Part shown: one piece after another, positions 1-5,550 of the stretch
How positions within the stretch are numbered: the first letter of the stretch is position 1
Layout: each line of letters opens with the position of its first letter
Source: a virus
Lineage: Duplodnaviria > Heunggongvirae > Uroviricota > Caudoviricetes
Virus record (IMG/VR): IMGVR_UViG_2534682095_000012
Direction: 5' to 3' (one strand)
DNA length: 5,550 bases
Notes under the pieces: model-generated
Seen by the model: the letters and a program-made list of their open reading frames with translations, nothing else
What the model was told of the DNA's origin: nothing
Database searches by the model: none
Position numbers and translations under genes: made by a program

Positions 1-38
1 ATAAAGTTTACGCATAATTACCTCTCGCTTCTCTGCAA

Positions 39-64
39 TAAAAAAGGCGTCATTTCTGACGCCC
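39..64 (-). terminator. Rho-independent terminator immediately downstream of J
   Basis: On the minus strand a 7-bp GC-rich stem (plus 46-52 GGCGTCA pairing with 57-63 TGACGCC) with a 4-nt loop is followed by a T6 tract (plus-strand A run 40-45). It lies about 18 nt after the J stop codon (82-84). On the plus strand the hairpin is preceded, not followed, by the A run, so it is oriented for minus-strand transcription. Confidence 0.65.
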
Positions 65-81
65 GTTATGGGTTATAAAAT

Positions 82-3435
<3,354 letters not shown>

Positions 3436-3449
3436 TCCTCACACTCCAT

Positions 3450-3477
3450 AAACAACAAAGCCGCCCAAAAGGCGGCT
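3450..3477 (-). terminator. Candidate intrinsic terminator after the lipoprotein gene, upstream of J
   Basis: The minus strand reads GCCGCC-TTTTG-GGCGGC (plus arms 3460-3465 and 3471-3476, extendable to 7 bp by a flanking A:T pair), followed by TTTGTTGTTT. It sits between the lipoprotein stop (3502-3504) and the J ribosome-binding site. Confidence 0.55.
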
Positions 3478-3501
3478 CATGAGTTACGACAGGATTAACT
3501 A

Positions 3502-3840
3502 TTATTTACATGCATTAACACTATCAGCAAAAATTTTTGGCGTTAATGCTGGTACACGTTCATAAAGAGTAAAACTACTGCCATTTCCTGCTTTTTTGAT
3601 ATCAAGCACAACATCATATCCCCCCATAGCCTGTGGAACTAAAAGGCTTACCCCATTCTCAATAGGAAGGGATGTTATAGGTGTTCCATTACCAGCCCAT
3701 TGTCTGGATATGCAGCCTGACAATTCATCAATATTTTTTAATGAATTACCTTCCATTACAGGTTTTCCGGATTTTACGTAATCCAAAGATTTACATCCTG
3801 TTAAGGCAATAATCGTGCAGAATAAAATCGTTTTGTTCAT
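3502..3840 (-). CDS. Small secreted lipoprotein (112-aa precursor) encoded in an AT-rich insertion between tail genes I and J; function unknown
   Basis: This is the ORF-track entry 3502..3852; I place the start at the ATG at 3838-3840 (MNKTILFCTIIALTGC...) rather than the upstream TTG. The N-terminus has a basic n-region (MNK), a hydrophobic core (TILFCTIIAL) and a lipobox L-T-G-C, so the mature protein would begin at the acylated Cys. The +2 residue is Lys, not Asp, which by the Lol sorting rule suggests the outer membrane. Two further Cys residues (SGCIS, NACK) could form a disulfide. A hand count of 3501-3560 gives about 32% GC, against about 65% in J at 1561-1620. No strong Shine-Dalgarno sequence is visible. 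Confidence 0.7.
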   Translation of the reverse strand: MNKTILFCTIIALTGCKSLDYVKSGKPVMEGNSLKNIDELSGCISRQWAGNGTPITSLPIENGVSLLVPQAMGGYDVVLDIKKAGNGSSFTLYERVPALTPKIFADSVNACK

Positions 3841-3879
3841 ATAGCTAACCAATAGAATAATTATCAGTGTTCGATATAA

Positions 3880-3907
3880 ATATTAAATTAGTTAGAACAT
3901 GAGTAAA
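3880..3907 (-). promoter_or_regulatory. Candidate sigma70-type promoter for the lipoprotein gene
   Basis: In the AT-rich I-to-lipoprotein spacer the minus strand reads TTTACT (plus 3902-3907), a 16-nt spacer, then TAATAT (plus 3880-3885), about 40 nt upstream of the ATG at 3840. Both hexamers match consensus at 4 of 6 positions. AT-rich DNA gives many such matches, so this is weak; an alternative -10 is GATAAT nearer the start. Confidence 0.2.
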
Positions 3908-3913
3908 ATAATA

Positions 3914-4555
3914 TTACCGCCCAATTACCACAACCTGACCACCATCCCCTTCATCTGCCGTGCTGATCTCCTGAGATGCCACACGTGACCCCACGCGCAT
4001 TTCACCGTACAGAACAGGCAGGACATTGCCCTGGGCAACCATGTTATCCAGTGAGGAGAAATAGGTGTTCTGTTTGCCGTTATCCGTTGTCTGTGTACGG
4101 GGAGTTCTGGCTTTCGGTGCCAGCATCTGCGCCACACCACCAAGCGTCATCGCCGCACCCATTGAAAAGAGAATGTCACTGAAAGCGATACTGATCCCCG
4201 GCATCCAGATTGCCGTAGCAATCAACGCCGCACCCAGCACCGCCTGAAACACACCGCCACTTTTTGCTCCCGCAAGACGCGGCACGATGTGGATCACGGC
4301 ACCATTTGCCAGCGGCTCATTAAGACGGGATGATAATTCGGTTTCTCCTGCATCCCGCCCGGCAATCCGTACCTGATACCAGCCATCGCTCAGTTTCTGA
4401 CGAAACGCCGGGAGCTGTGTGGCCAGTGCCCGGATGGCTTCAGCCCCCGTTTTCACACGAAGGTCGATGCGGCGGCCAAATCGTTGCAAATCCCCGTAAA
4501 GGCAGATGCGTGCCATGCCCGGTGACGCCAGAGGGAGTGTGTGCGTCGCTGCCAT
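3914..4555 (-). CDS. I: Tail assembly protein I (lambda gpI family), 213 aa
   Basis: The ORF translation MAATHTLPLASPGMARICLYGDLQRFGRRIDLRVKTGAEAIRALATQLPAFRQKLSDGWYQVRIAGRD...QEISTADEGDGGQVVVIGR matches lambda gpI at both termini as I recall it, with a divergent, slightly shorter middle. The ATG at 4553-4555 is preceded by AGAGG, and the TAA stop is at 3914-3916. The 5' end overlaps the 3' end of K, as in lambda. Confidence 0.9.
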   Translation of the reverse strand: MAATHTLPLASPGMARICLYGDLQRFGRRIDLRVKTGAEAIRALATQLPAFRQKLSDGWYQVRIAGRDAGETELSSRLNEPLANGAVIHIVPRLAGAKSGGVFQAVLGAALIATAIWMPGISIAFSDILFSMGAAMTLGGVAQMLAPKARTPRTQTTDNGKQNTYFSSLDNMVAQGNVLPVLYGEMRVGSRVASQEISTADEGDGGQVVVIGR

Positions 4556-5196
4556 TTGTCGGTATACCTCTCTCGTTTACTCAGTTGTTCAGGAATATGG
4601 TGCAGCAGCTCGCCGTCACCACAGTAAATGGCGGCATGATTCGGCACCGATGAACCAAAACAGCACAGCAGCACATCGCCCGGTTGTGCTGATGACAACG
4701 GCACCTGATACAGCCCTGTGGCCTCCAGATTATCCAGATAGAGATTCTGACCGTGACGCCACCAGTCATCCCCGCGATGAAAATCCGGCATCTCAATCCC
4801 CGCCAGATGATAAGCATCCCGGAACAGCGTGTAACAGTCCGTCACCCCGTGCTCAAAGCGCCGCCCGGTGAGATGCGGCACACAGCGGAACTTATGAATC
4901 GCCCCCCGGCAGACCAGCCACCACGGCAAATCACTCTGCACCTGCAGCCGCCGGTCAGCCTCACTCAGCCAGGGCAGACCACCGGGGTGGCTGTGGACCA
5001 GCGCCACAATCTCACCCTGCATCTCTGCCTGCAGCCAGTCCTCCGGAGCCATCCGGAAATACGCCTCCGGCTCACCGGAGATATTCACGCAGGGGAAATA
5101 TCTTTCCCCCTCCGGCGTTCTCACCACGAAGCCGCACGACTCCGCTGGCGCACATCGCCGGGCGTGCGCCAGAATCGCTGATTCTGTCTCTGTCAT
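4453..5196 (-). CDS. K: Tail tip assembly protein K (lambda gpK family): N-terminal MPN/JAMM metalloprotease-like domain plus C-terminal NlpC/P60 cysteine peptidase-like domain, 247 aa
   Basis: Starting from the ATG at 5194-5196 (MTETESAILAHARRCAPAESCGFVV...) the ORF matches lambda gpK. A JAMM motif H-x-H-x7-S-x2-D is present (HSHPGGLPWLSEAD, residues 68-81, nt 4954-4995). The NlpC/P60 signature Cys is in TDCYTLF (Cys121) with a downstream His in PNHAAIY. The start is 5 nt after the L stop. An alternative internal start (ATG 5050-5052, preceded by GGAGG) would give the 199-aa form I believe is classically annotated for lambda K. The ORF-track extension up to 5271 overlaps L and is not used. 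Confidence 0.85.
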   Translation of the reverse strand: MTETESAILAHARRCAPAESCGFVVRTPEGERYFPCVNISGEPEAYFRMAPEDWLQAEMQGEIVALVHSHPGGLPWLSEADRRLQVQSDLPWWLVCRGAIHKFRCVPHLTGRRFEHGVTDCYTLFRDAYHLAGIEMPDFHRGDDWWRHGQNLYLDNLEATGLYQVPLSSAQPGDVLLCCFGSSVPNHAAIYCGDGELLHHIPEQLSKRERYTDKWQRRTHSLWRHRAWHASAFTGICNDLAAASTFV

Positions 5197-5200
5197 GGGA

Positions 5201-5550
5201 TTACTGCGAAAGTTTGTTAATGGAAAGGAAGCCGCCAAAGTTGCCGACGTTATTGCGAAACTTACAGCCACTCAGGCATTTGCTGCATTTATCCTTCGTG
5301 ATATCGGACGTCGGCTGGTCATATTCATCCGCGACAGCCGGACCGCTATAACCGCACTCGTCACCGCGATAGGTCCAGGTGCAGGTGTTGGCCAGCATGA
5401 TACGTCCCGGAAAAACAGCGCCATCCGTTTCCGTCGGCGTGGACAGTACAAAGGAGGCACTCACCGCGCTCAGTTCGCTGCACTGCTCGATGCGCCAGCG
5501 GCTGATCACCTCCTGCTCCGGATCGGCGTCTCTGTTTCCGTTGACGAAGT
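5201..5550 (-). CDS. L: Tail tip protein L (lambda gpL family), C-terminal part; 5' end lies beyond the window
   Basis: The minus-strand frame is open to the window edge. It translates as ...FVNGNRDADPEQEVISRWRIEQCSELSAVSASFVLSTPTETDGAVFPGRIMLANTCTWTYRGDECGYSGPAVADEYDQPTSDITKDKCSKCLSGCKFRNNVGNFGGFLSINKLSQ, matching the gpL C-terminus as I recall it, including the Cys-rich region. The TAA stop is at 5201-5203. The Met at 5509 in the ORF track is an internal GTG (Val) codon, not the true start. Confidence 0.85.
   Translation of the reverse strand, partial: FVNGNRDADPEQEVISRWRIEQCSELSAVSASFVLSTPTETDGAVFPGRIMLANTCTWTYRGDECGYSGPAVADEYDQPTSDITKDKCSKCLSGCKFRNNVGNFGGFLSINKLSQ

What the first reader, a model, noticed from the sequence alone, without database searches (positions are those of the whole stretch)
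3502..3840. Uncharacterised phage lipoprotein next to the receptor-binding protein gene: candidate superinfection-exclusion factor
The product has a clear lipoprotein signal peptide (lipobox LTGC, Lys at +2) and a mature part of about 95 aa with two further cysteines. I do not recognise it as a named family. Known precedents are the small lipoproteins Cor (phi80, N15 and HK022-like phages) and Llp (T5), which inactivate the outer-membrane receptor FhuA that the phage itself uses and so block superinfection. A lipoprotein gene placed directly beside J, which determines receptor choice, fits that kind of pairing. It could equally be a virulence or serum-resistance type conversion gene. I am not claiming homology to Cor or Llp.
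Basis: inference. Interest (0 to 1): 0.65.

Follow-up and report, generated by a model that had tools for sequence, protein, structure and literature searches.

The report
Uncharacterised prophage tail-module lipoprotein
A small outer-membrane lipoprotein gene of unknown function sits as an add-on between tail genes I and J of a lambda-like E. coli prophage; it may protect the lysogen from other phages, but it does not behave like the known receptor-blocking lipoproteins.

Summary
Window 3502-3840 (minus strand) encodes a 112-aa prelipoprotein: lipobox LTGC, Lys at +2, and two further Cys that never vary across the family. It is identical to WP_001332187.1 of UTI89, S88 and APEC O1.

It belongs to PHROG 914 (function unknown). 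It has no Pfam, NCBIfam or PADLOC match. It shows no homology to Cor, to the mEp021 exclusion lipoprotein Lpp021 or to Bor, and no solved structure of an exclusion lipoprotein appeared among its fold matches. The AF2 model is confident (pLDDT 88). Its nearest solved fold is the Francisella lipoprotein Flpp3, and only weakly.

The gene is a low-GC insert of about 430 bp that many lambdoid phages lack. It occurs in 337 of 5426 complete E. coli genomes. Across 180 related loci the family almost always lies next to tail gene I, usually as K-lipoprotein-I. Some distant members lie in lysogeny-type modules or in ordinary chromosomal settings.

The same allele occurs with four different J C-termini. 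In sister loci Cor tracks the J C-terminus and this lipoprotein does not.

Superinfection exclusion remains the best guess, more likely independent of receptor identity. It is untested.

The parts
3502..3840 (-). CDS of the 112-aa prelipoprotein, stop codon included; identical to WP_001332187.1
   Evidence: PHROG 914 at E 7e-33
3796..3840 (-). Signal peptide, residues 1-15 (MNKTILFCTIIALTG)
   Evidence: read directly from the sequence; this region is conserved in all homologues
3793..3804 (-). Lipobox L-T-G-C. Cys16 (3793-3795) is the predicted lipidation site. The next residue is Lys (+2), which predicts outer-membrane sorting.
   Evidence: C16 invariant; the +2 rule is established E. coli knowledge
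3712..3714 (-). Cys43, invariant; predicted disulfide partner of Cys111
   Evidence: both Cys lie in the two helices of the model; the disulfide itself is inferred
3508..3510 (-). Cys111, invariant, penultimate residue
3841..3913 (-). 73-nt AT-rich spacer between the I stop codon and the ATG. It contains only weak promoter-like hexamers (for example TTTACT-17-AATATT, 8 of 12 matches, read by eye).
   Evidence: no site passes the scanner's threshold on the minus strand
3481..3913 (-). Approximate extent of the inserted cassette (about 430 bp, GC about 0.36) compared with lambdoid phages that have I directly followed by the I-J spacer
   Evidence: empty site in phage Evi and 109 other phage records; GC
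3448..3478 (-). GC-rich hairpin (GAGCCGCC-TTTT-GGGCGGCTT) followed by a T-rich tail: terminator-like, between the lipoprotein stop and the J start
   Evidence: a similar hairpin is already present in the empty I-J spacer of phage Evi
3914..4489 (-). Tail assembly gene I (PF06805); the gene the family is most consistently linked to
4453..5196 (-). Tail assembly gene K (JAB/MPN plus NlpC/P60)
82..3435 (-). Tail tip and host specificity gene J. In this window it is split into an N-part (2551-3435) and a C-part (82-1944) by many small deletions.

Best explanation
This is an accessory (moron-type) gene of a lambda-like prophage. It encodes a small lipoprotein with one disulfide, sorted to the outer membrane. 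It belongs to an uncharacterised family (PHROG 914) that lives mainly next to tail gene I in the K-I-J tail-tip block of temperate siphophages of Enterobacteriaceae and Pseudomonas.

Most likely role (inferred): it is made from the prophage, and also late in lytic growth as part of the tail operon. It changes the cell envelope so that incoming phages are excluded.

Most likely mode (inferred, weaker): it acts at a step that does not depend on which receptor the J C-terminus binds. It could do this by engaging conserved tail-tip or ejection components (I, H, the J N-terminal hub) as they cross the periplasm, or a host envelope factor they need. HK97 gp15 and the Gram-positive lipoprotein Ltp are the functional models, rather than Cor or Llp.

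Shown here: the gene, the lipoprotein signals, the family, the fold model, the insert status, the linkage to I, and the lack of coupling to the J C-terminus.

Not shown: expression, localisation, or any exclusion phenotype.
For: Lipoprotein signals and invariant cysteines. Confident alpha/beta model.

Insert status: GC is 0.36 against 0.58 in the flanks. The gene is absent from 110 isolated lambdoid phages that share the I and J flanks. It is present in only 337 of 5426 complete E. coli genomes.

Position: of 180 loci, 59 are I|lipo|J, about 110 have the gene directly upstream of I, and 6 are T|lipo|H. T|H is the site of the HK97 gp15 exclusion moron (PMC3594210).

A hairpin plus T-run follows the gene in 17 of 20 lineage representatives.

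In phiAH14a a family member with a lipobox sits upstream of a second copy of I. It is downstream of the cI-like repressor and on the same strand. Distant members follow a Cro/CI-type HTH gene or an ImmA-like M78 peptidase gene. This is the kind of place where prophage-expressed genes lie.

Independence from receptor choice.

Precedent: experimentally shown exclusion lipoproteins encoded in tail gene clusters (PMC11893012, PMC12685063, PMC9586334).
Against: There is no experimental or transcript evidence for this family anywhere in the searched literature.

No convincing sigma-70 promoter lies upstream. In K|lipo|I loci only about 30 nt separate the K stop from the ATG.

In this window the hairpin after the gene is native to the I-J spacer. 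It is not proof of a terminator carried by the cassette.

Adjacency to I may only reflect a permissive hot spot. Unrelated lipoprotein genes occupy the same junctions.

The loci are phylogenetically redundant, so the counts and correlations overstate independent support.

Some distant relatives are ordinary chromosomal genes. This is compatible with a housekeeping envelope role.

The fold gives no functional lead.
Confidence: 0.38

Rival explanations
1. Cor/Llp-type receptor masking. The lipoprotein binds the periplasmic face of the outer-membrane receptor used by its own phage and prevents adsorption.
For: It is an outer-membrane lipoprotein encoded in the tail module, and in this window directly upstream of J. 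All characterised Gram-negative phage exclusion lipoproteins work this way (PMC9586334, PMC12685063, PMC11893012).
Against: The same allele occurs with four different J C-terminal types. In Fraca-type loci it does not covary with the J C-terminus, whereas Cor does. Fraca has both genes. The usual position is upstream of I, not beside the receptor-binding region. The mature protein is 97 aa with a different fold. The known blockers have mature parts of about 57-60 aa in the two sequences read here, or about 6 kDa as reported for Rtp45 (PMC12685063). Similarity beyond the signal peptide and a few residues after the lipobox Cys is absent.
Confidence: 0.15
2. A host-fitness or virulence conversion factor, such as serum or stress resistance or envelope remodelling. 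Lambda Bor/Iss would be the model, or the Francisella lipoprotein Flpp3, which has the closest fold. Under this reading it has no role against phages.
Against: The structural match is weak (6-12% identity, TM about 0.5) and the fold is generic. There is no hit to the Bor family or to any other Pfam family. The tight, recurrent linkage to tail gene I over wide phage divergence is not predicted by a purely host-directed role. Enrichment by pathotype was not tested.
Confidence: 0.2
3. A lytic-cycle function. The protein is made late with the tail proteins. It either neutralises envelope debris or vesicles so that progeny are not lost, or it otherwise assists release or tail-tip function.
For: In K|lipo|I loci the gene lies about 30 nt after K, has a strong Shine-Dalgarno sequence and no room for a promoter of its own. 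It must therefore be transcribed with the late operon. The same position is kept from Enterobacteriaceae to Pseudomonas.
Against: It is absent from many closely related, viable phages, so it is not needed for tail assembly. It is an exported lipoprotein, whereas tails assemble in the cytoplasm. The hairpin plus T-run after the gene, and the members found in lysogeny modules, point to expression without late antitermination.
Confidence: 0.12

Closest known systems
Cor (phi80, N15, T1, HK022-type) exclusion lipoprotein
   Same: A small phage-encoded lipoprotein with internal cysteines, encoded in the tail region of temperate siphophages. It is present in some of the same phages (Fraca).
   Different: hhalign aligns only the signal peptide and a few residues after it. 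Cor of Fraca is 77 aa against 112 aa here. Cor lies downstream of J and its allele follows the J C-terminus (r 0.97). This family lies next to I and follows the J N-terminus.
Llp (T5) and Rtp45 (Rtp): periplasmic lipoproteins that lock FhuA or LptD
   Same: Lipoproteins anchored in the outer membrane, carrying a disulfide, and encoded next to adsorption genes (PMC9586334, PMC12685063).
Lpp021 and Lpp010 of mEpimmI coliphages (Pfam PF24052, Phage_lipoprotein)
   Same: Lipoproteins of temperate coliphages with a J-type tail tip, encoded within the structural gene cluster. They were shown experimentally to exclude phages that use OmpA or LamB, lambda included (PMC11893012).
   Different: Lpp021 is 72 aa, matches PF24052 (E 6e-31) and lies downstream of J. 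The window protein has no Pfam hit. hhalign aligns the signal peptide only.
HK97 gp15 moron (exclusion at the DNA-entry step)
   Same: A moron inside the tail operon that is expressed from the prophage. Its exclusion depends on the tail of the incoming phage, not on the receptor (PMC3594210). One lineage of this family occupies the same T|H junction.
   Different: gp15 is a small inner-membrane protein related to YebO, not a lipoprotein. There is no homology, and no phenotype is known for the present family.
Ltp (Streptococcus thermophilus phage TP-J34)
   Same: A prophage-encoded lipoprotein, described as surface-exposed on the host cell and involved in superinfection exclusion (PMC3952083). 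From my own knowledge, not checked here, it blocks DNA injection by acting on the tape measure protein. That makes it the functional model for an exclusion lipoprotein that is independent of the receptor.
   Different: It comes from a Gram-positive host and has a different fold. From my own knowledge, not checked here, it is encoded in the lysogeny module. No homology.
Flpp3 / DUF3568 (Francisella lipoprotein)
   Different: 6-12% identity and no Pfam hit. The fold class is shared with KA1, DUF302 and the BamC N-domain, so this is a resemblance and not membership.

Membership tests
Bacterial lipoprotein (Lgt/LspA substrate) | N-terminal signal peptide ending in the lipobox [LVI][ASTVI][GAS]C | tested here: met
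   MNKTILFCTIIALTG|C has L-T-G-C at residues 13-16. The Cys is invariant in 65 homologues.
Bacterial lipoprotein (Lgt/LspA substrate) | [quoted passage not shown] | tested here: met
   Lys17 is at +2. The rule is established E. coli knowledge. It predicts localisation and does not measure it.
Bacterial lipoprotein (Lgt/LspA substrate) | Actual lipidation, globomycin sensitivity and membrane localisation | not testable with these tools
   Needs globomycin treatment, palmitate labelling and membrane fractionation.
PHROG 914 (function unknown) | Full-length match to the family HMM | tested here: met
   E 7.3e-33; residues 1-112 match profile positions 1-118 of 118.
Cor | Sequence homology of the mature domain | tested here: not met
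   hhalign of Fraca Cor against the family profile aligns residues 1-32 only (signal peptide and tether).
Cor | Encoded with, and covarying with, the receptor-binding end of J | tested here: not met
   One allele occurs with four J C-terminal types. Spearman correlation is 0.31 with the J C-terminus and 0.80 with the J N-terminus. Cor against the J C-terminus gives r 0.97.
Cor | Blocks FhuA-dependent adsorption | not testable with these tools
   Needs plating and adsorption assays.
Llp (T5) | Sequence or fold similarity to a solved Llp structure | tested here: not met
Pfam PF24052 Phage_lipoprotein (Lpp021 type) | Match to the Pfam model | tested here: not met
   Lpp021 matches at E 5.6e-31. 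The window protein has no Pfam match at E <= 1, and none of 65 family members match.
Lambda Bor / Iss | Match to the Pfam Bor family | tested here: not met
   No Pfam family at E <= 1.
Moron (Juhala/Hendrix sense; PMC3594210) | Extra DNA compared with related phages | tested here: met
   110 phage records carry the I and J flanks without the roughly 430-bp insert.
Moron (Juhala/Hendrix sense; PMC3594210) | Base composition different from the neighbouring genes | tested here: met
   GC is 0.36 against 0.58-0.59 in the flanks. In other enteric lineages it is 0.38-0.46 against 0.41-0.58, and lower than at least one flank in every representative. It is not lower in Pseudomonas.
Moron (Juhala/Hendrix sense; PMC3594210) | Own terminator | tested here: inconclusive
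   A hairpin plus T-run follows the gene, but it already exists in the empty I-J spacer. In K|lipo|I, T|lipo|H and phiAH14a loci a hairpin follows the gene and precedes I or H.
Moron (Juhala/Hendrix sense; PMC3594210) | Own promoter and expression from the repressed prophage | tested here: inconclusive
   No consensus-grade sigma-70 site lies upstream on the coding strand. Transcript data are needed.
Flpp3 / DUF3568 | Sequence-family membership | tested here: not met

The most novel reading that the evidence does not exclude
PHROG 914 would be a new class of Gram-negative exclusion lipoprotein that travels with the conserved tail-tip core (K-I-J N-terminus) and not with the receptor-binding cassette. 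It would block infection after adsorption by capturing ejected tail-tip proteins (I, H or the J hub) in the periplasm. That would make it a Gram-negative counterpart of Ltp. The junctions around gene I would then be a dedicated hot spot for such envelope-directed lipoprotein cargo.
Probability: 0.18. Interest if true: 0.7.

Novelty: new variant of a known kind. Interest (0 to 1): 0.42.

Why it matters
Exclusion lipoproteins decide which phages can superinfect a lysogen, so they matter for phage therapy and for how prophages compete. All characterised Gram-negative examples are receptor-matched blockers. These are Cor, Llp, Rtp45 and, from their exclusion spectra, Lpp021 and Lpp010, whose mechanism is not established.

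This family is carried by about 6% of complete E. coli genomes, including the model strains UTI89, S88 and APEC O1. It is also found in Klebsiella, Enterobacter, Kluyvera and Pseudomonas prophages. It is linked to the conserved tail-tip genes and not to the receptor-binding end.

If it excludes phages, it would do so by a route not yet described for Gram-negative lipoproteins. It would also give a handle on the poorly understood periplasmic stage of siphophage DNA entry and on the role of gpI. If it does not, it is one more uncharacterised prophage cargo gene.

Tried and rejected
- Pfam, NCBIfam and PADLOC gave nothing. The only listed hit, VirB7 at E 0.08, covers the signal peptide alone.
- A Pfam scan of 65 diverse members gave nothing.
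- A profile search of PDB sequences returned only signal-peptide or chance matches.
- The afdb50 fold library was unavailable.
- The genome-contig scan returned a single locus. The wide alignment was too diverse to use for pattern scans.
- Two long multi-stretch hits of the representative search were set aside. P0159 is an Ig_7 repeat protein and the match is spurious. P0183 has no Pfam family and was not pursued.
- A conserved motif TGCTAATCT upstream of the gene in K|lipo|I loci looked like an extended -10 element. It is the conserved C-terminus and stop codon of K.
- I first read the hairpin after the gene as a terminator carried by the cassette. The empty site in phage Evi shows it belongs to the I-J spacer.
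- I considered an immunity-like inhibitor of the NlpC/P60 domain of K, by analogy with type VI amidase immunity lipoproteins, because the usual position is directly after K. I found no evidence for it. It would also require K to reach the periplasm. It was not pursued.
- AH14a_p83 (140 aa) and the LMessi 115-aa lipoprotein were tested as possible relatives. For AH14a_p83 only the signal peptide and tether align. The LMessi protein was judged by eye only.
- A lipoprotein-gpI complex prediction was not attempted.
- Four literature searches on phage exclusion lipoproteins and tail-module morons, and one for the RefSeq accession, found no paper on this family.

Full report
**1. The observation**

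The product starts MNKTILFCTIIALTGCKS. It has a short positive n-region, a hydrophobic core and the lipobox L-T-G-C, with Cys16 as the predicted lipidation site and Lys at +2. Under the established E. coli +2 rule (Asp at +2 retains a lipoprotein in the inner membrane) this predicts sorting to the outer membrane. The mature part has two more cysteines, C43 and C111.

The 551 bp around the gene are 100% identical to a prophage next to the trp operon in UTI89, S88, APEC O1, IHE3034 and the E. coli type strain. There the product is WP_001332187.1, annotated 'hypothetical protein'. The flanking genes are the lambda tail-tip block L, K (JAB plus NlpC/P60), I (PF06805) and J.

**2. It is a real gene of a real family**

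Pfam, NCBIfam and PADLOC give nothing. PHROGs gives a full-length match to phrog_914, function unknown (E 7e-33).

A word-indexed search found homologues at 50-60% identity in Klebsiella, Enterobacter, Kluyvera and Jejubacter. A profile search widened this to 90 proteins. An exhaustive profile search found 125 clusters at 50% identity with E <= 1e-3.

In a 65-sequence alignment with 21% mean column identity, only three columns are invariant: the lipobox Cys, C43 and C111. P27, W48 and G63 are nearly invariant. All names given by source databases are 'hypothetical protein', 'Lipoprotein' or 'Phage protein'.

**3. Fold**

AlphaFold2 with a 53-sequence alignment gives mean pLDDT 88.4 and pTM 0.77. 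The order of elements is strand, helix, four strands, helix. The two invariant cysteines sit in the two helices, so a disulfide between them is a reasonable inference.

- Foldseek against the PDB: the best match is again Flpp3, at E 0.011 and TM 0.5.
- Against viral models: the only strong match is an unannotated protein of Pseudomonas phage phiAH14a (E 2e-5, TM 0.83).
- A profile search of PDB sequences returns only signal-peptide matches.

No solved structure of an exclusion lipoprotein appears in any of these lists. The fold therefore confirms a compact exported domain but gives no functional lead.

**4. It is an insert**

The gene has GC 0.36, against 0.58-0.59 in the flanking tail genes. 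One hundred and ten isolated lambdoid phages share the I and J flanks at 80-99% identity but lack about 415-430 bp in between. Examples are Evi, mEp460, mEp332, cdtI phage and PhiR49.

Alignment with Evi places the insert immediately after the I stop codon and before a GC-rich hairpin with a T-run. That hairpin is already present in the empty I-J spacer. So in this window the terminator-like hairpin at 3478-3458 is native to the site. It is not evidence for a terminator carried by the cassette.

The CDS occurs in 337 of 5426 complete E. coli genomes at 97.9% nucleotide identity or more. No sigma-70 site of consensus quality lies upstream on the coding strand. By eye there is only a weak TTTACT-17-AATATT.

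**5. Where the family lives**

I collected 180 loci from phage records, assemblies and IMG/VR. Their tail genes were labelled by tblastn with references from five diverged phages.

| Type | Arrangement | Loci |
|---|---|---|
| E. coli (window) type | I, lipoprotein, J | 59 |
| Fraca type | lipoprotein directly upstream of I (spacer about 55-75 nt), with K or further small genes on the other side | 81 |
| Klebsiella, Kluyvera and Siccibacter types | K, lipoprotein, I | about 27 |
| An Enterobacter-associated type (P0014-like) | between the chaperone gene T and the tape measure gene H | 6 |

The T|H junction is the site of the classic HK97 gp15 moron (PMC3594210).

In phiAH14a the annotated 93-aa ORF is truncated at its N-terminus. 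The full 115-aa ORF has a lipobox (LSGC) and the family cysteines. It lies 61 nt upstream of a second copy of gene I, in the early region, downstream of the cI-like repressor and on the same strand.

Eight more distant members were also looked up:
- Three are again next to I (P0098, P0122, P0136).
- One follows a Cro/CI-type HTH gene (P0131).
- One follows an ImmA-like M78 peptidase gene (P0165).
- Two are in ordinary chromosomal settings (P0113, P0184).
- One contig was too short to tell (P0103).

A borderline Pseudomonas homologue, P0090, is also chromosomal.

In 17 of 20 lineage representatives a hairpin plus T-run follows the gene and precedes I, J or H. In K|lipo|I loci only about 30 nt, carrying a strong Shine-Dalgarno sequence, separate the K stop from the ATG. 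Any promoter there would have to lie inside K.

The same junctions also hold unrelated exported proteins:
- a 115-aa lipoprotein in LMessi and Fraca;
- a 140-aa lipoprotein in phiAH14a;
- a UPF0257 protein between I and J in Siccibacter.

The surroundings of gene I thus look like a hot spot for envelope-directed cargo.

**6.

If this were a Cor/Llp-type blocker of the phage's own receptor, it should travel with the receptor-binding end of J. It does not.

- Among E. coli loci with a complete J, the lipoprotein at 98-100% identity is found with four J C-terminal types. They occur in 24, 5, 4 (plus the window itself) and 2 loci. Their last 150 aa are 42-60% identical or unalignable.
- In the Fraca-type loci, 21 loci whose lipoprotein is at least 96% identical have J C-termini from 31% to 100% identical. 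Over 60 loci, lipoprotein identity correlates with the J N-terminus (Spearman 0.80) and only weakly with the C-terminus (0.31).
- Cor is present in 12 of these loci and serves as an internal positive control. It tracks the J C-terminus (Pearson 0.97).
- Fraca carries both genes.
- Klebsiella homologues at 52% identity accompany J proteins of 3100-3400 aa with carbohydrate-binding modules.

The loci are not phylogenetically independent, so these figures are descriptive and not formal tests.

**7. Comparison with known exclusion lipoproteins**

[quoted passage not shown] Both alter the extracellular loops of the receptor (PMC9586334, PMC12685063).

The mEpimmI coliphages encode lipoproteins in their structural cluster that were shown experimentally to exclude OmpA- or LamB-dependent phages, lambda included (PMC11893012). 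I retrieved Lpp021. It is 72 aa, matches Pfam PF24052, and is encoded downstream of J.

hhalign of Lpp021 against the family profile aligns the signal peptide only. hhalign of Fraca Cor aligns the signal peptide and about 14 further residues. The present family is larger (97 aa mature), has a different fold, and has different genomic linkage.

**8. Interpretation**

Firmly established:
- a conserved, exported, disulfide-bearing lipoprotein family;
- an accessory insert in this prophage;
- recurrent linkage to the tail-tip genes, gene I above all;
- occasional placement in lysogeny-type modules;
- no coupling to the receptor-binding domain.

Inferred: the protein is made in lysogens, and also late in infection. 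It acts at the envelope, and phage exclusion is its most probable role. This rests on the precedents for tail-operon morons (gp15, Cor, Lpp021) and on the members found in lysogeny modules.

Given the lack of coupling to the J C-terminus, a receptor-independent step is more likely than receptor masking. It could act on conserved tail-tip or ejection proteins, or on a host factor they need. This is a hypothesis with no direct support. A host-fitness role of the Bor type and a purely lytic-cycle role remain open.

**9. Verdict**

The finding is real and the gene is uncharacterised. It is a new family within a known kind of element, the prophage lipoprotein moron. It is of moderate interest and is directly testable in standard E. 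coli strains.

Noticed in passing
window 1806-2568 (inside J, minus strand): J is not one ORF here. Compared with the closest complete genome (96% identity, intact gpJ of 1132 aa), the window has 22 small deletions of 1-7 nt, 45 nt in all. All are clustered in this 760-bp stretch, none is in a homopolymer, and mismatch density there is about twice that elsewhere. The only other indel in the window is a 1-nt insertion at 3905. This is either an error-rich assembly stretch or an unusual local decay of J.
   Followed up: partly
window 3448-3478; L184:590-760 (phage Evi): The terminator-like hairpin upstream of J is also present in the I-J spacer of lambdoid phages that lack the lipoprotein insert. 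A hairpin plus T-run inside the late tail operon, just before J, therefore seems to be a native feature of this phage group.
   Followed up: partly
window 45-64 (minus strand): A second clean terminator-like hairpin with a T-run (GGGCGTCAGAAATGACGCCT TTTTTATT) lies directly after the J stop codon. In related prophages the lom gene follows at this point.
   Followed up: no
L080:5962-6309 (Pseudomonas phage phiAH14a, KU708004.1): The annotated 93-aa AH14a_p33 is truncated at its N-terminus. The full 115-aa ORF is a lipoprotein of this family (LSGC lipobox). It sits 61 nt upstream of a second copy of tail assembly gene I, in the early region downstream of the cI-like repressor. According to the paper, the satellite phiAH14b also pairs an I homologue with a lipoprotein.
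   Followed up: partly
L003:5647-5994 (LMessi); L183:4239-4661 (phiAH14a p83); L083:8060-8782 (Siccibacter prophage): Unrelated exported proteins occupy the same K|I and I|J junctions: a 115-aa lipoprotein (IVGC), a 140-aa lipoprotein, and a UPF0257 protein. The surroundings of gene I look like a hot spot for envelope-directed cargo genes.
   Followed up: partly
L002 and L084-L163 (Fraca-type IMG/VR loci): Where cor is present, the Cor allele covaries tightly with the last 200 aa of J (Pearson 0.97, n 12), while the J N-terminus stays 93-100% identical in all but one of those loci (84% in L147). This is a clean illustration of modular exchange of the receptor-binding cassette together with its blocker.
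   Followed up: yes
L188:1446-1787, L189:3616-3957, L191:879-1220, L195:639-980, L081:7001-7330: Distant family members lie outside tail modules. Two follow a Cro/CI-type HTH gene or an ImmA-like M78 peptidase gene. Three are in apparently chromosomal settings: next to UvrD-like helicase and AI-2E transporter genes, next to an SDR gene, and next to a BamE-like lipoprotein gene. This suggests a cellular origin for the family.
   Followed up: partly
window 1-5550 as a whole: No complete E. coli genome matches the whole window better than 96%, although the lipoprotein segment is 100% identical to many. Identity varies block by block (85-100% per 150 nt), as expected for a mosaic lambdoid tail region.
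   Followed up: no
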